DNA of 5,192 bases from a virus (lineage: Duplodnaviria > Heunggongvirae > Uroviricota > Caudoviricetes). The stretch's first letter is position 1. Every line of letters begins with the position of its first letter. Below the pieces are notes generated by a model. It had not been told where the DNA came from, made no database searches, and saw only the letters and a program-made list of their open reading frames with translations. Positions 593-5,192 of this stretch are shown piece after piece. The stretch lies in the IMG/VR virus record IMGVR_UViG_2778261277_000011. One strand, written 5' to 3'. The translations under genes were made by a program, and so were the position numbers.

Positions 593-943
593 TTACTTCA
601 ACCGTTCACGGGCCGTCTTCGCCTTATGACACGGCCAGCACAGGCTCTGCAGATTGCTGTCGGCATCAGTGCCGCCATGCGCTTTAGGGATGATGTGGTC
701 AACGGTTTTCGCCTCACGCACCACACCGGCACGCAGACATAACTGACATAAACCTTTGTCACGCTCCAGCACACGCGCGCGGATAACATCCCACTTCGAA
801 CCGTAGCCGCGCTGATGACGGGATTGTCCTGGCTTGTATTGCTTCCAGCCTTCGCTTTTGTGGCTTTCGCAATAGCCTGACGGATCAGTAGTAGTATGGC
901 GGCAACCGCGAACGCGGCAGGCTTTTGGGGTTCGTGGTGGCAT
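593..943 (-). CDS. HNH endonuclease, phage packaging-associated (HK97 gp74-like)
   Basis: 116-aa ORF with N-terminal Cys cluster (CRVRGCRH...YCESH) and C-terminal HNH core (VDHIIPKAHGG...NLQSLCWPCHKAKT); immediately upstream of terS in the same orientation. Confidence 0.85.
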   Translation of the reverse strand: MPPRTPKACRVRGCRHTTTDPSGYCESHKSEGWKQYKPGQSRHQRGYGSKWDVIRARVLERDKGLCQLCLRAGVVREAKTVDHIIPKAHGGTDADSNLQSLCWPCHKAKTARERLK

Positions 944-969
944 TGGACACTATCGTTGCTTATGTTTAT

Positions 970-994
970 AAAAAAAGCCCTGCTTACGCAGGGC
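970..994 (-). terminator. Intrinsic terminator for minus-strand transcripts, downstream of the 76-aa cargo ORF
   Basis: Perfect 7-bp stem GCCCTGC (977..983) / GCAGGGC (988..994) with 4-nt loop, followed on the minus strand by a T7 run (plus-strand A-run 970..976). Confidence 0.6.
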
Positions 995-1022
995 ATAAAA
1001 ACTCAATATTGATACTATGAAT

Positions 1023-1253
1023 CTATTCCAAATCCCAACGTGGAATATTTATTATCTTACCAGGAGTTAAGGAAAATTTGGCTTTCTTCAATATCTCAAC
1101 ATTAGCATCATCAGGAATCACTAAGAAGTACGAATAGTGCATTTCTCCAGAATTCCCATGATTCTCCTGAATATCATCTTCGCTAACTCCCGACGCTTCA
1201 AGCTCATCAACTGTGAGTCCTAAATAATCAGCTAGCTTTTGTATATCAATCAT
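1023..1253 (-). CDS. Hypothetical small acidic protein (76 aa) in AT-rich cargo island; function unknown
   Basis: ATG at 1253..1251 with GAGGTG 4 nt upstream (strong SD); ORF MIDIQKLADYLGLTVDELEASGVSEDD...; about 15 D/E residues; low GC compared with flanking phage genes; followed by an intrinsic terminator. Confidence 0.5.
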   Translation of the reverse strand: MIDIQKLADYLGLTVDELEASGVSEDDIQENHGNSGEMHYSYFLVIPDDANVEILKKAKFSLTPGKIINIPRWDLE

Positions 1254-1552
1254 TAATCACCTCACATATCAACGATGAGGCATCATCATCACACACTCTA
1301 GCAAAAGCTTCAACTTATTGTTATTATTAAAATAATTCTATACAAATTACATCTAATGTATATCCTATGATACGACAGGTGCGAATATTAATGACAAACA
1401 ACCATCGTATTTCTCTGAAAAATGGCAAGTATCACTCATTATTCCCCATGCATCTATGTACTCTGTTCATGGTCAAGCCATAACTATATTTAATGCAAGA
1501 ATACGGAAAGTTAAACAAATAAACGTTGATACACTAACATTCCACAAACTAG

Positions 1553-1846
1553 TTATACTAATGAAGTAGGCAATTCTTCCTCTGAAATTCCCAATACTCT
1601 CATATCGGCCCGCAATTCTGCTATAGCGCACACTTCACTATAAGATGGTGCGGACTTCTCAGGATAAAGTACATACTCAAAATGCGGCGGAGGATTAAAT
1701 ATTAAAACCGAATACCCAGCTTCTTGAAGGATATTTTGGACGATTGAATAATAAGGTCTACGCTCATCAAACCAATAACATCCATTCCTTTCTATTGACG
1801 CGATTGCTTTTTTTGCGTGCTTCTTATAAACCCATGCCTTATCCAT
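1553..1846 (-). CDS. Hypothetical protein (97 aa) in AT-rich cargo island; function unknown
   Basis: ATG-initiated ORF MDKAWVYKKHAKKAIASIERNGCYWFDERRPYY...; no recognisable motif; weak SD (AGGA only 1 nt from the ATG); low-GC context; perfect minus-strand TATAAT (plus 1974..1979) and paired TACGTA palindromes lie upstream. Confidence 0.45.
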   Translation of the reverse strand: MDKAWVYKKHAKKAIASIERNGCYWFDERRPYYSIVQNILQEAGYSVLIFNPPPHFEYVLYPEKSAPSYSEVCAIAELRADMRVLGISEEELPTSLV

Positions 1847-1994
1847 ATCCTGTCAAAAATCTCCCTACGTAATTGAACAATAACACTACGTAGTAGTCAT
1901 ACACCAGAATATCTAACATATCAATCCAGCAACATTTAATTATTTTAACTTAATATGAAAAAGTCTTCAGTGATTATAATTTCACACCTATATA

Positions 1995-2285
1995 TCAATT
2001 CAGTAACTTTTCAGAGCCTGTGGCCAGTCTTTGGACACGCTGTTGTTGGACAATAGCTCGAATATGAGACTTGTCCGTATTACATTGCCCTAATGCAGAT
2101 AACAAGCTCGCATTTAAGTTGAGACTTGCACCATACGTCAGAGGGTCTGGTATGAGCGGTATAGGTGTTTCAGAAATCAAACTAGTTGGTAGTGGTGTAA
2201 CCGGAGTGCTCACGTAAACTGTCCGCGTACTTCCGCAACCGGTCAGCAGCGGCAGCAGGCACAGCACGTGAAGCGCAATCATCAT
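1995..2285 (-). CDS. Rz1: Rz1-type o-spanin (outer-membrane lipoprotein), overlapping the 3' end of Rz in another frame
   Basis: Start at the internal Met pair (2285..2283 / 2282..2280) of track ORF 1995..2453: MMIALHVLCLLPLLTGC with lipobox LTGC, then a proline-rich mature domain (TPVTPLPTSLISETPIPLIPDP); begins inside Rz and extends past the Rz stop. Confidence 0.7.
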   Translation of the reverse strand: MMIALHVLCLLPLLTGCGSTRTVYVSTPVTPLPTSLISETPIPLIPDPLTYGASLNLNASLLSALGQCNTDKSHIRAIVQQQRVQRLATGSEKLLN

Positions 2286-2562
2286 TCTCAACAGCCACTT
2301 TGATATCTTCCTGGGTTCTCTGTGACTCCAGTGCGATCTGCTGTTTTGCATGCTGGTTAGCCTCCAGAACTGTATTGACGATTTGTAGTGATTGCAGGAC
2401 GTTATTGGTAATGGCTGTTGCTGATTCAGCATTTCGTACAGCCTCATCAGCACGTTTCTTTTCGTGCTGATATTTGCTGTAGTAGTGGTTGGTAGACCAG
2501 ATGAAAGAACCGATGACAGTAAAGAAGAATGCAGAGATAGCCAGCTTATAGCTCAACTTCAT
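2182..2562 (-). CDS. Rz: Rz-type i-spanin (inner-membrane spanin subunit)
   Basis: 126 aa; N-terminal TMD (LAISAFFFTVIGSFIW) followed by STNHY, resembling lambda Rz (WAVNHY) as recalled; predicted coiled-coil periplasmic region; start overlaps the endolysin 3' end by 17 nt; contains the out-of-frame Rz1. Confidence 0.75.
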   Translation of the reverse strand: MKLSYKLAISAFFFTVIGSFIWSTNHYYSKYQHEKKRADEAVRNAESATAITNNVLQSLQIVNTVLEANQHAKQQIALESQRTQEDIKVAVENDDCASRAVPAAAADRLRKYADSLREHSGYTTTN

Positions 2563-3361: not shown

Positions 3362-3437
3362 TTCGTCATCTCTCACCTCGCGATATTTGCGGGTGCTGTG
3401 TTGGAAATAAAAAGGCCACGCAACGTGACCACCAGAA

Positions 3438-4490: not shown

Positions 4491-4522
4491 GGATCAGTAA
4501 GCGTAACTCTGGTAGGCTCACT

Positions 4523-4542
4523 CTGCTTTTGCGCTAAAGCAG
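4523..4542. other. Hairpin in the methyltransferase 5' leader (7-bp stem CTGCTTT/AAAGCAG, 6-nt loop)
   Basis: Inverted repeat read directly from the sequence; no function assigned. Confidence 0.3.
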
Positions 4543-4639
4543 TGGGCCGTGGTTCGCTTGTGACCAGTAAGCATGAGCGAATGGCTGGCAGGTGCTACCA
4601 ACACCCACCAGCCGCCCATTTTCACAAATTAAAAGTCCT

Positions 4640-4834
4640 TCATTGCTGAAGGCGTCTGTAACAGCCGAACTGGTAATCTGCCAGCCCCGCCATAACCAAC
4701 TGGGTCAGTATTAACTGACAGCGTTCGCGTGAAAGATATGTGTTTTGTGCAATCTCCCCGGCCGTTGTCGGTTCGATGCTTAATTCATTAAAAACAACTT
4801 TCGCCGTTTCTGTCATATCTTGCTGTTTTAGCAT
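4640..4834 (-). CDS. Small winged-helix protein resembling the PapI/FaeA family (64 aa from the RBS-supported ATG; track ORF extends to 4858)
   Basis: AAGGA 8 nt upstream of the ATG at 4834..4832; MLKQQDMTETAKVVFNELSIEPTTAGEIAQNTYLSRERCQLILTQLVMAGLADYQ matches the PapI pattern as I recall it (..KTAEIAEAL..YQARYYLLLLEKAGMV..). Family assignment is from memory and not search-verified. Confidence 0.5.
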   Translation of the reverse strand: MLKQQDMTETAKVVFNELSIEPTTAGEIAQNTYLSRERCQLILTQLVMAGLADYQFGCYRRLQQ

Positions 4835-4953
4835 GTCTTTTTTCCTTCTGGTTAACATGACATACCAATAACTCTTGTCTAAAAAGCCAGCAAGATAAAA
4901 AGTCAGTATTCACGATCACCAGCGTGTTTACCGTACTGCCAACATCAAGGCAC

Positions 4954-4976
4954 AAAAAAACCCGCTCAGCGGCGGG
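4954..4976 (-). terminator. Intrinsic terminator on the minus strand (candidate tR'-like late-leader terminator)
   Basis: GC-rich hairpin CCCGC-N6-GCGGG (4961..4976) followed on the minus strand by a T7 run (plus-strand A-run 4954..4960); lies about 50 nt downstream of the candidate late promoter. Confidence 0.65.
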
Positions 4977-5024
4977 TTCTTAAATCTTATCAACGGTAGA
5001 CATACAAAGCCCATCGTTGGAAAA

Positions 5025-5053
5025 ATCTTATCCATATTTTTTGAAAAATGCAA
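5025..5053 (-). promoter_or_regulatory. Candidate sigma70 late promoter (pR'-like): -35 TTGCAT, 17-bp spacer, -10 TAAGAT
   Basis: Minus-strand TTGCAT (plus 5048..5053) and TAAGAT (plus 5025..5030) with exact 17-bp spacing, directly downstream of the Q-like stop; downstream CAACGATGGG resembles the start of the lambda pR' transcript as I recall it. Confidence 0.4.
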
Positions 5054-5084
5054 GCATTATGTCGCCATCTTCGGCGAAAATCAT

Positions 5085-5192
5085 TTATCTCGTCACTTTT
5101 CTTAATTGCGCCTCAGCATATGCTTCTTCCTGCCAGCACTTTGTAACCAGTTTATCAATGACATCTGCATATCCTTTGTACCACTGATAATC
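5085..5192 (-). CDS. Q: Late antiterminator Q-like protein, C-terminal 35 codons (5' end outside window)
   Basis: Minus-strand frame open from the window edge to TAA at 5087..5085: ...DYQWYKGYADVIDKLVTKCWQEEAYAEAQLRKVTR. Resembles the lambda Q C-terminus as recalled (...YDALVVQCHKEES...AVTR). A second frame is also open for 29 codons, so frame choice rests on that similarity. Confidence 0.55.
   Translation of the reverse strand, partial: DYQWYKGYADVIDKLVTKCWQEEAYAEAQLRKVTR

What the first reader, a model, noticed from the sequence alone, without database searches (positions are those of the whole stretch)
1000..1995. AT-rich two-gene cargo island between the lysis cassette and the packaging genes
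About 1 kb between the Rz1 stop (1995) and the HNH start (943) is much more AT-rich than the flanking phage genes (sampled 60-nt lines give roughly 22-42% GC here against roughly 45-63% in the endolysin and methyltransferase). It holds two minus-strand ORFs with no motif I recognise: a 97-aa protein (1553..1846) and a 76-aa strongly acidic protein (1023..1253) with a strong SD. The unit has its own perfect TATAAT and its own intrinsic terminator (970..994). This is the classic moron position (where bor sits in lambda), where prophages carry lysogenic-conversion, defence or anti-defence cargo. The 300-nt gap between the two ORFs argues against a classical overlapping toxin-antitoxin pair.
Basis: partly seen in the sequence, partly recalled or inferred. 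Interest (0 to 1): 0.72.

Follow-up and report, generated by a model that had tools for sequence, protein, structure and literature searches.

The report
Two-gene moron island in prophage hotspot
This AT-rich kilobase is real accessory cargo sitting in a swap-prone slot between the lysis and DNA-packaging genes of an E. coli prophage, but it is two unrelated single-gene cassettes of unknown function rather than one unit, which makes it an ordinary example of a well-known kind of phage add-on.

Summary
Window 944-1994 is 34.7% GC against 46-58% in the flanks. It carries two intact minus-strand ORFs (97 aa, 76 aa) and a strong intrinsic terminator. Only 7-8 of 5,426 complete E. coli genomes carry the island. 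Related prophages have the same LysC/HNH junction empty (26 bp) or filled with at least seven other unrelated AT-rich cargos, so this is a recombination hotspot for morons.

The island is composite. The ORF76 cassette (about 95-nt leader, ORF, terminator; window 1349-968) recurs at about 80% identity in four other phage contigs representing at least two further backbones. It always sits just after Rz/Rz1, before the small terminase, and without ORF97. ORF97 belongs to a sparse family related to the uncharacterised P. aeruginosa protein PA2723 (PDB 6tcb). Its relatives occupy the same slot in a Proteus prophage, or lie in small-gene arrays beside type IV secretion XVIPCD toxin genes.

Neither protein matches any Pfam, NCBIfam or PADLOC model. 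ORF76 has no fold match in PDB. The "own promoter" claim is weak, because the TATAAT is no more than chance would give. A toxin-antitoxin pair is rejected.

Function is inferred only: small binding proteins used in phage or bacterial conflict. This is a new member of a known kind, of moderate-to-low interest.

The parts
944..2050 (.). Variable, AT-rich segment of the hotspot. It comprises the cargo plus the recombined 3' end of LysC.
   Evidence: Homology to eight relatives ends exactly at the HNH start codon (943) and fades at about 2050 inside LysC. GC is 34.7%.
1553..1846 (-). ORF97: a 97-aa cytoplasmic alpha/beta protein of the PA2723-like family. It is a stand-alone accessory gene.
   Evidence: 12 remote relatives of 93-106 aa share the motifs G[RC]YWF..R, PPxWExV and IAxxRxxL..G....LP. 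hhalign to PA2723 gives prob 91.7%. Foldseek top hit is 6tcb_A, TM 0.58. There is no Pfam, PHROG, PADLOC or NCBIfam match.
1023..1253 (-). ORF76: a 76-aa acidic protein (pI 4.4), matching PHROG 31861 (unknown function). It is a ~70-aa domain that also occurs fused to a zinc ribbon on plasmids.
   Evidence: PHROG E=1e-35. Homologs at 76-80% identity occur in other phage backbones. Codon-position substitutions are 11/4/26. AF2 pLDDT is 84.5, with no PDB fold match.
1254..1349 (-). Conserved leader of the ORF76 cassette. It contains the SD (1263..1257) and two candidate promoters.
   Evidence: 80% identical to the leaders in L002, L005, L027 and L028, whereas sequence further upstream is unrelated at 21-24%. 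Its fold is not significant, z = -1.2.
1335..1362 (-). Candidate sigma-70 promoter A for ORF76 (TATACA-16-TAGAAT). Only the -10 lies in the conserved leader.
   Evidence: This is the only minus-strand promoter-like site the scan called in the island. The scan found fewer sites than in shuffles, so this is weak evidence.
1285..1313 (-). Candidate promoter B for ORF76 (TTGAAG-17-TGT-GATGAT, extended -10 type). It is conserved in all five backbones.
   Evidence: Read directly from the sequence and from alignment A5. It scores 8/12 and falls below the scan threshold. This is inference.
968..994 (-). Intrinsic terminator of the ORF76 cassette (7-bp GC stem, 4-nt loop, T7). It lies 25 nt upstream of the HNH ATG.
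   Evidence: Called by the scan. It is 85-89% conserved with the terminators that follow the ORF76 homologs in four other contigs, while its flanking sequence is unrelated.
1350..1552 (.). Non-conserved spacer between the two cassettes, apparently non-coding.
   Evidence: It has no homology to the other ORF76 loci. A 5-bp indel is tolerated here in the 98.6% identical variant island. There is no Rfam match.
1973..1978 (-).
   Evidence: It is present, but 1.24 are expected per strand by chance and there is no usable -35.
1995..2291 (-). LysC/Rz1 o-spanin, the conserved right flank. Its last ~18 codons lie in the variable segment.
   Evidence: PF23793 E=5e-15. RefSeq annotation. Alignment A4.
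593..943 (-). HNH endonuclease next to the P27-type small terminase, the conserved left flank.
   Evidence: PF01844 E=2e-16. PHROG 144. Annotation.

Best explanation
The block is a composite moron island in a recombination hotspot of an E. coli lambdoid (e14/phi80-like) prophage integrated at ssrA. The hotspot lies between the last lysis gene (LysC/Rz1) and the HNH-terminase packaging module.

Shown: two independently mobile single-gene cassettes lie side by side.
- Cassette 1 (window about 1349-968) is a self-contained moron: a conserved ~95-nt leader with a strong SD, ORF76, and its own intrinsic terminator. It has moved as a unit into at least three different phage backbones, always at the Rz-to-terS junction and always pointing the same way as the late genes.
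- Cassette 2 (about 2050-1350) carries ORF97, a PA2723-like protein that is elsewhere a stand-alone gene.

Inferred mechanism:
- In the lysogen, ORF76 is transcribed from a weak promoter in or just upstream of its leader and stops at its own terminator, so HNH and terminase stay off.
- During lytic growth, Q-antiterminated late transcription reads through both cassettes.
- Both products are small cytoplasmic proteins with no enzymatic motifs, so they most likely act by binding and neutralising a partner protein in phage-phage or bacterium-bacterium conflict.
- ORF76 would be an exclusion or defence-type factor.
- ORF97 would be an immunity-like neutraliser of a toxin or effector.

The architecture is well supported (about 0.85). 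The functional assignment is guilt by association only (about 0.3-0.4).
For: Hotspot:
- The island is in 7-8 of 5,426 genomes.
- The same junction is empty in L006 (LysC stop 26 bp from the HNH ATG), or holds other cargos of 1-2 genes on either strand, seen in L007, L008, L009, L011, L012 and L014, with further span classes.
- All cargos are AT-rich.
- Breakpoints are at 943/944 and about 2050.

Composite nature:
- ORF76 with its leader and terminator is shared at about 80% nt identity with L002, L005, L027 and L028. Those contigs have different lysis genes (DUF2514 Rz, a different endolysin) and different terminases (Nu1/GpA or another type), and they lack ORF97.
- The two families co-occur only in the E. 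coli island.

Real genes:
- ORF76 substitutions are biased to the third codon position, 11/4/26.
- The ORF97 family has invariant W25, P54, V59 and R79 across relatives at 28-60% identity.

Conflict association, ORF97 relatives:
- Same lysis/terminase slot in a Proteus prophage.
- Downstream of XVIPCD type IV secretion toxin genes, within same-strand small-gene arrays. The same array also occurs without the toxin.
- In a 17-gene small-ORF array.
- Next to a DUF4411 gene and next to a KilA-N gene.

Conflict association, ORF76 domain:
- Between Olokun (OloA/OloB, E=1e-121 and 2e-208) and a type III R-M system on a Photobacterium plasmid.
- Near a DUF4238 gene and a HipA gene on a Vibrio plasmid.
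- One of only two non-backbone genes on a 5-kb mobilizable plasmid.

Precedent: small moron defence proteins near the packaging module. [quoted passage not shown]
Against: - There is no direct functional evidence of any kind.
- Neither protein matches a PADLOC, Pfam or NCBIfam model.
- No Imm-family match exists for ORF97, and there is no toxin gene in this prophage window.
- In the XVIPCD loci another gene (144 aa) lies between the toxin and the ORF97 relative. One array keeps the ORF97 relative without the toxin, so the linkage is loose.
- The neighbourhood of the PA2723 homolog holds detox-type genes (GFA, PhnB-like, TetR) and no conflict genes.
- Promoter evidence is weak: the scan finds fewer promoter-like sites than in shuffles. 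ORF97 has a poor SD and no convincing promoter. Both genes could therefore be expressed only as part of the late operon.
- All E. coli copies carry both genes together, so functional coupling within E. coli is not strictly excluded.
Confidence: 0.55

Rival explanations
1. Anti-defence cargo. One or both proteins are phage counter-defence factors, such as inhibitors or decoys of host immune proteins. They would be expressed from the Q-dependent late transcript, or early after infection, and would help the phage rather than the lysogen.
For: Both genes point the same way as the late operon, and ORF76 always does so in other backbones. Independent promoters are unconvincing. ORF76 is small and acidic, like many protein inhibitors. 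Its domain is also carried by plasmids, including a small mobilizable one, and plasmids commonly carry anti-defence genes (general knowledge).
Against: A strong terminator directly after ORF76, conserved with the cassette, is the hallmark of an insulated moron. It is not expected of a gene meant to be co-expressed with downstream late genes. Late expression is an odd time for anti-restriction or anti-abortive functions. There is no similarity to known anti-defence folds.
Confidence: 0.2
2. A functionally coupled two-gene system. This could be a toxin-antitoxin pair, or a defence protein with its own self-immunity partner in the manner of Tab and anti-Tab.
For: In E. coli the two genes are always found together. 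The Tab precedent pairs a small moron defence protein with a counter-defence gene (PMC10884400).
Against: A 300-nt unconserved spacer that tolerates a 5-bp indel separates them. ORF76 occurs without ORF97 in the other phage contigs L002-L005, L027 and L028, and on plasmids. ORF97 relatives occur without ORF76 in every non-E. coli locus. The genes downstream of ORF97 relatives are not homologous to one another.
Confidence: 0.08
3. ORF76 is a dispensable accessory of lysis or packaging, for example a modulator of spanin, terminase or HNH action, rather than a host-benefit moron.
For: It sits invariantly between Rz/Rz1 and the small terminase, in late-gene orientation, in at least three unrelated backbones. 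Its N-terminal 'KLADYLGLT' two-helix segment superficially resembles the HTH start of Nu1-type small terminases (sequence reading).
Against: It is absent from the great majority of closely related prophages, which have identical lysis and packaging genes. The same domain occurs on plasmids that have no phage lysis or packaging genes. It is acidic rather than DNA-binding in character, and it gave no HTH Pfam hit even at E<=1.
Confidence: 0.1
4. Decaying junk. The ORFs would be chance or degenerating reading frames in AT-rich filler left behind by illegitimate recombination.
For: ORF97 is almost an orphan, with one 90% cluster in 5.8 billion proteins by the word-seeded search. It has a poor SD. 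One strain has an IS3 inserted next to it.
Against: ORF76 shows purifying selection. ORF97 has full-length relatives of constant size with invariant residues, and it matches a crystallised protein. Both ORFs are intact in all island copies, while the only indel lies in the spacer.
Confidence: 0.03

Closest known systems
Classical lambdoid morons at the end of the lysis cassette (lambda bor between Rz and cos; the Hendrix/Juhala moron concept)
   Same: The position is immediately downstream of Rz/Rz1 and upstream of the packaging genes. The cargo is present or absent between near-identical phages, has atypically low GC, and (for ORF76) carries its own terminator.
   Different: Neither protein has a signal peptide or lipobox, as bor does (sequence reading). 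Both genes lie on the late-gene strand, whereas bor is on the opposite strand (my knowledge). There is no sequence relationship. Promoters are not demonstrated.
Small prophage defence morons near the packaging module: Tab of P. aeruginosa JBD26 (83 aa; PMC10884400) and Tai systems of phi80-like phages (PMC11364771)
   Same: They are small proteins encoded within or beside the terminase region of temperate phages. Tai genes lie 'predominantly upstream of the packaging module'. They act by protein binding rather than by enzymatic activity.
   Different: No homology could be tested because their sequences are not held here. No phenotype is known for ORF76 or ORF97. Tab has a dedicated anti-Tab partner, whereas ORF76 and ORF97 are independently distributed.
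PA2723 of Pseudomonas aeruginosa (PDB 6tcb, uncharacterised)
   Same: It is about 94 aa and aligns with ORF97 end to end. The profile match is hhalign prob 91.7%, E=8e-7, with HMMER E=0.19. It is the top Foldseek hit of the ORF97 model, with prob 1.00 and TM 0.58. It shares the C-terminal R..LRE.G....LP motif.
   Different: Identity is only 24-26%. PA2723 lacks the PPxWE motif. The chromosomal neighbourhood of its homolog in P. paraeruginosa holds GFA, PhnB-like and TetR genes. It has no Pfam family and no literature, so it gives a fold relative but no function.
Orphan immunity genes and polyimmunity loci of polymorphic toxin systems (Zhang et al. 2012, PMC3482391)
   Same: ORF97 relatives lie in same-strand tandem arrays of small heterogeneous genes whose content varies. 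Some arrays sit beside XVIPCD type IV secretion toxin genes. This matches the published description of such loci.
   Different: No member matches any Imm, SUKH or SuFu family. The ORF97 relative is not the gene directly adjacent to the toxin. The window contains no toxin. No neutralisation has been shown.
Phage-encoded hotspots of variable accessory and defence genes (P2/P4 hotspots, Rousset et al. 2022, PMC9122126)
   Same: A fixed site bounded by conserved core genes holds many alternative, unrelated, AT-rich cargos across related prophages.
   Different: The phage family and the site are different. None of the six alternative cargo sets fetched here that hold genes (L007, L008, L009, L011, L012, L014) contains a gene with a significant Pfam match to a defence family. 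They were not scanned with PADLOC.

Membership tests
Phage moron (accessory cassette inserted between core genes) | Present in some phages and absent at the same position from closely related ones | tested here: met
   7-8 of 5,426 genomes carry it. Relatives have the site empty or filled with other cargos.
Phage moron (accessory cassette inserted between core genes) | Base composition distinct from the surrounding phage genes | tested here: met
   34.7% GC against 46-58%.
Phage moron (accessory cassette inserted between core genes) | Own transcription terminator | tested here: met
   ORF76 has a terminator at 994..968 that is conserved with the cassette. No terminator was found after ORF97.
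Phage moron (accessory cassette inserted between core genes) | Own promoter allowing expression from the repressed prophage | tested here: inconclusive
   The TATAAT at 1978..1973 has no -35 and is at chance level. There are two weak candidates in or near the ORF76 leader. Expression cannot be tested with these tools.
PA2723-like protein family (PDB 6tcb), for ORF97 | Full-length sequence-profile similarity | tested here: met
   hhalign prob 91.7%, E=7.7e-7, over 85 columns. The HMMER profile against PDB gives E=0.19, which is weak on its own. A local HMM hit to the P. paraeruginosa homolog gives E=0.004.
PA2723-like protein family (PDB 6tcb), for ORF97 | Same fold | tested here: inconclusive
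   6tcb_A is the best Foldseek match (prob 1.00, TM 0.58, 95 columns). The ORF97 model is only pLDDT 66.
Immunity protein of a polymorphic or contact-dependent toxin system, for ORF97 | Encoded directly next to its cognate toxin gene | tested here: not met
   There is no toxin gene in the window or in the prophage. In relatives, a 144-aa gene lies between the XVIPCD toxin gene and the ORF97 homolog. One array has the homolog without the toxin.
Immunity protein of a polymorphic or contact-dependent toxin system, for ORF97 | Membership of a described immunity family (Imm1-74, SUKH, SuFu and others) | tested here: not met
   No Pfam family matched the protein or its 12 relatives.
Immunity protein of a polymorphic or contact-dependent toxin system, for ORF97 | Neutralises a toxin | not testable with these tools
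   This needs co-expression or competition assays.
Type II toxin-antitoxin pair | Two adjacent, usually overlapping, co-transcribed genes | tested here: not met
   There is a 299-nt gap (1254-1552), unconserved and tolerant of an indel.
Type II toxin-antitoxin pair | The two genes co-occur across genomes | tested here: not met
   Each family occurs without the other in every locus outside E. coli.
Known anti-phage defence systems (PADLOC-DB v2) | HMM match to a component of a known or candidate system | tested here: not met
   There are no hits at E<=10 for either protein, and none for the 127-aa fusion relative.
bor-type lysogenic-conversion lipoprotein | N-terminal signal peptide with a lipobox | tested here: not met
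   ORF76 starts MIDIQKLADYLG and ORF97 starts MDKAWVYKKHAKK. Both are hydrophilic, with GRAVY about -0.3.
Tab / Tai tail-assembly-inhibiting moron proteins | Sequence or structural homology to Tab or Tai proteins | not tested
Only the position and the size are analogous.

The most novel reading that the evidence does not exclude
One or both cassettes encode a previously unrecognised single-protein protective factor that the prophage gives to its host.

For ORF97, the PA2723-like family would be a new family of orphan immunity proteins. They would neutralise an effector delivered by neighbouring bacteria, as suggested by the relatives that sit in small-gene arrays beside XVIPCD type IV secretion toxins. 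Prophages in E. coli and Proteus would spread such a gene as lysogenic-conversion cargo.

For ORF76, the conserved NxGxSxEMxYxY domain would be a new minimal anti-phage exclusion module, shared by phages, small plasmids and defence islands.
Probability: 0.2. Interest if true: 0.65.

Novelty: new member of a known kind. Interest (0 to 1): 0.38.

Why it matters
The finding adds a clearly delimited cargo hotspot to the catalogue of prophage cargo sites. The site lies between the LysC stop and the HNH start in phi80/e14-like E. coli prophages, and it has at least nine alternative states including the empty one. It also offers two compact, experimentally tractable orphan genes. One of them, ORF76, is a textbook portable cassette of leader, ORF and terminator. 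Its domain also turns up between Olokun and a type III restriction system, and as one of only two non-backbone genes on a 5-kb plasmid. If either protein proves to be a defence or immunity factor, it would be a very small new one, and it would give the crystallised but unannotated PA2723 family a function. If not, the locus remains a routine example of moron turnover.

Tried and rejected
1. Toxin-antitoxin or other coupled pair. Rejected because the two genes are distributed independently.

2. ORF76-like domain as antitoxin of the neighbouring GNAT acetyltransferase in Vibrio and Photobacterium. Rejected because three further loci have no GNAT, and neither does the Enterobacter plasmid.

3. 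A conserved downstream partner for ORF97 relatives (the 168-295 aa genes). These are not homologous to one another.

4. A regulatory RNA or SD-sequestering hairpin in the ORF76 leader. The fold z-score is -1.2, only 2 of 33 predicted pairs in the consensus structure show a compensatory change, and there is no Rfam hit. My first impression that the leader is better conserved than the CDS was wrong: both are 80%.

5. Family assignment by Pfam, NCBIfam, PADLOC and PHROGs. This gave nothing beyond PHROG 31861 of unknown function.

7. tBLASTn of both proteins against 50,697 GenBank phages gave no match. DNA search of the island against those phages gave none either. ORF97 against plasmids gave none.

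8. The neighbourhood of the PA2723 homolog as a functional clue. It was uninformative. There is no literature on PA2723 or 6TCB.

9. Locus searches with the ORF97 family alignment failed because no stretch is conserved enough. ORF97 alone in species-representative genomes found nothing.

10. Calling L022 a polyimmunity locus. The reference catalogue does not list RraB or UPF0167, so this stays an analogy.
Full report
**Setting**

The window is part of an E. coli lambdoid (e14/phi80-like) prophage integrated beside ssrA. An identical 5.2-kb stretch lies in strain 0-4. In that strain's annotated record, every gene of the window's stretch is on the minus strand, in this order:
- antiterminator Q
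- a 195-nt ORF
- DNA methyltransferase
- lambda-type holin
- GH24 endolysin
- Rz (DUF2570)
- LysC/Rz1
- two hypothetical genes
- HNH endonuclease
- P27-type small terminase
- large terminase, portal and the rest of the late genes

Family scans confirm the flanks. HNH matches PF01844 at E=2e-16, LysC matches PF23793 at E=5e-15, the holin matches PF05106, and Rz matches PHROG 214.

**Checking the observation**

The block is real.
- Window 944-1994 is 34.7% GC, with sub-segments at 28-39%. The packaging genes are 57-58% and the lysis and methylase genes 46-53%.
- The two ORFs are as described: 1553..1846, 97 aa, and 1023..1253, 76 aa, pI 4.38.
- ORF76 has a strong SD, GAGGTGA. ORF97 does not.
- The intrinsic terminator GCCCTGC-GTAA-GCAGGGC-T7 at 994..968 is called by the scan.
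- The 'perfect TATAAT' exists at 1978..1973. About 1.2 such hexamers per strand are expected by chance in DNA this AT-rich, no -35 better than 3/6 lies at a 15-19 nt spacing, and the scan did not call it.

**A cargo hotspot**

Only 7 complete E. coli genomes, plus one copy disrupted by IS3, carry the island out of 5,426. About 520 others match only its flanks.

Using the whole window as a query, relatives with about 94-96% identical flanks span the same interval in many different lengths. I fetched representatives.
- In L006 the junction is empty: the LysC stop is 26 bp from the HNH ATG.
- The other fetched loci carry six unrelated cargo sets of one or two genes, on either strand: L007/L010/L013, L008, L009, L011, L012 and L014.
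- The span classes (about 4.40 and 4.57 kb) point to further sets that I did not fetch.
- None of the fetched cargo genes has an informative Pfam hit except one DUF2513.
- All are AT-rich, at 31-43% GC.

Alignments place the left breakpoint exactly at the HNH start codon. The HNH ribosome-binding region therefore belongs to the variable DNA. The right breakpoint lies inside the last ~18 codons of LysC, around window 2050.

**The island is composite**

*ORF76 cassette.* ORF76 has homologs at 76-80% identity in metagenomic and viral contigs.
- In L002 and L027 it follows a DUF2514-type Rz/Rz1 and precedes Nu1/GpA terminases.
- In L028 it follows a different endolysin and Rz, and precedes a different small and large terminase.
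- In L005 it lies directly upstream of Nu1.
- ORF97 is absent from all of these.

A five-way DNA alignment shows that the shared unit runs from about 95 nt upstream of the ATG (window 1349) through the ORF to the terminator (window 968). Sequence on either side is unrelated at 21-32% identity. Leader and CDS are both about 80% identical, and the terminator is 85-89% identical. CDS substitutions fall 11/4/26 by codon position, which indicates purifying selection.

The leader contains a -10-like TAGAAT. The scan's only minus-strand call in the island is TATACA-16-TAGAAT at 1362..1335. The leader also holds a conserved TTGAAG-17-TGT-GATGAT at 1313..1285. Neither is strong. An SD-sequestering hairpin is possible but not significant, with z = -1.2, almost no covariation and no Rfam hit.

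*Spacer.* The remaining spacer (1350-1552) is unconserved. In the 98.6% identical variant island it holds the only indel, while both ORFs stay intact.

**ORF97**

The word-seeded search found only its own cluster. The exhaustive HMMER search found 12 relatives of 93-106 aa at 28-60% identity. They share the conserved G[RC]YWF..R, PPxWExV and IAxxRxxL..G....LP motifs. A profile search added more. None has a Pfam domain.

The family profile aligns end to end with PA2723 (PDB 6tcb, 94 aa).
- HMMER gives E=0.19.
- hhalign gives prob 91.7%, E=7.7e-7.
- Independently, the single-sequence AF2 model (pLDDT 66) has 6tcb_A as its best PDB match, with prob 1.00 and TM 0.58. R3H domains come next.

PA2723 has no Pfam family and no literature. 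The neighbours of its homolog in P. paraeruginosa are PhnB-like, GFA and TetR genes. The relationship therefore gives a fold but no function.

Contexts of ORF97 relatives:
- The same lysis/terminase slot of a Proteus mirabilis prophage, on the opposite strand and again at low GC.
- Two genes downstream of XVIPCD (X-Tfe type IV secretion) toxin genes, in same-strand arrays of small genes.
- The same array without the toxin.
- A 17-gene small-ORF array containing RraB-like, UPF0167 and DUF7660 genes, and another array.
- Overlapping an unknown 187-aa gene near a D12 methylase.
- Next to a DUF4411 gene. From my memory, DUF4411 is a PIN-like predicted toxin.
- Next to a KilA-N gene, for the closest relative at 60% identity.

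The downstream neighbours are not homologous to each other. There is never more than one copy per locus. The arrays fit the published description of polyimmunity loci, but no member matches a described immunity family. The immunity reading is an analogy, not a membership.

**ORF76**

tBLASTn against plasmids found relatives at 37-41% identity. In these, the domain forms the C-terminal part of a 127-aa protein with an N-terminal zinc ribbon of three CxxC motifs. The conserved core is L..[YF]LG.T.DE...G....N.G.S.EM.Y.Y...VP.
- On a Photobacterium plasmid this gene lies between an Olokun system (OloA E=9e-121, OloB E=2e-208) and a type III restriction system.
- On a Vibrio plasmid it lies near a DUF4238 protein and a HipA module.
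- On a 5-kb ColKP3 Enterobacter plasmid it is one of only two genes outside the replication and mobilisation backbone. The other is a VbhA-domain gene next to mobC.
- A GNAT gene follows it in Vibrio and Photobacterium, but not in three further loci, so that pairing is not conserved.

**Interpretation**

What is shown:
- There is a hotspot.
- It holds two independent cassettes, one of which is a portable unit of leader, ORF and terminator.
- Both genes are real, selected protein-coding genes from sparse families of unknown function.

What is inferred:
- ORF76 is expressed in the lysogen from a weak leader promoter and is insulated by its terminator.
- Q-antiterminated late transcripts read through during lytic growth. 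This follows from established lambda biology.
- Both products act as small binding proteins in phage or bacterial conflict. This rests only on the company their relatives keep, and on precedents such as Tab (83 aa) and the Tai genes 'upstream of the packaging module' in phi80-like phages.

Rivals:
- An anti-defence role remains plausible.
- A lysis or packaging accessory role for ORF76 remains plausible.
- A coupled two-gene system is unlikely.
- Junk DNA is unlikely.

**Verdict**

This is a well-delimited but ordinary instance of moron turnover at a lysis/packaging hotspot, carrying two uncharacterised small proteins. It is a new member of a known kind, with moderate-to-low interest, and there is perhaps a one-in-five chance that one of the proteins turns out to be a new minimal immunity or exclusion factor.

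Noticed in passing
window 944-973 (upstream of the HNH start at 943): Homology with relatives ends exactly at the HNH ATG, so this island supplies HNH's translation-initiation region. Here it has no recognisable Shine-Dalgarno (minus strand ...CGATAGTGTCCAATG) and sits 25 nt after a strong terminator. Relatives have GAGG or GGAG there. HNH expression may therefore differ in island carriers.
   Followed up: partly
window ~1849 (3 nt upstream of the ORF97 ATG); E. coli PCP06173, NZ_CM129873.1: One island copy has an IS3-family element inserted just upstream of ORF97. The match to the window stops at about 1849, and an IS3 transposase is annotated under the joined hit.
   Followed up: no
window 1995-2050: The last ~18 codons of LysC/Rz1 belong to the AT-rich variable segment and differ between relatives. 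The recombination joint lies inside the o-spanin gene, which gives each cargo type its own LysC C-terminus.
   Followed up: partly
window ~4500-5192; L010:5109-5639: There is a second variable site between the methyltransferase-proximal 195-nt ORF and the Q antiterminator. Some relatives carry an extra 531-nt gene there. In the window, ORF 4640..4858 (72 aa) has weak winged-helix hits (DprA_WH E=0.004).
   Followed up: no
window 3414-3430 (minus strand): A terminator-like hairpin (GGTCACG-TTG-CGTGGCC plus a T-run) lies between the methyltransferase stop and the holin start. This is a possible tR'-type site inside the late operon.
   Followed up: no
ORF97 model (window 1553-1846): After 6tcb, the next structural matches are R3H nucleic-acid-binding domains (2cpm, 3gku, 9lrg; prob 0.87-0.99). 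The family has a nearly invariant Arg (R30; one relative has Ser) at the start of the second helix, where R3H domains have theirs, but no His. The model is low-confidence at pLDDT 66.
   Followed up: no
L019:1660-6843: An ICE-like metagenomic element carries a cluster of TIR-domain genes (ThsB_TIR, TIR_2 twice, LD_cluster3) directly upstream of an XVIPCD type IV secretion toxin cassette and the small-gene array that holds the ORF97 relative. TrwB-like coupling proteins, RadC and a serine recombinase lie nearby.
   Followed up: no
L038:2799-14198 (Photobacterium damselae plasmid NZ_CP018299.1): A defence island carries Olokun (OloA/OloB), then the 127-aa zinc-ribbon/ORF76-domain gene plus a GNAT gene, then a type III R-M system with a DUF4391 gene.
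   Followed up: partly
L047:1234-1685: The metagenomic copy of the zinc-ribbon/ORF76-domain gene appears split into two overlapping frames, which suggests a frameshift or a sequencing error.
   Followed up: no
L027:2348-3400: The lambda-like viral contig that carries an ORF76 homolog also encodes a close homolog of the window's 350-aa DNA methyltransferase, immediately upstream of its lysis genes. The methylase-lysis arrangement is therefore shared across backbones that have different terminases.
   Followed up: no
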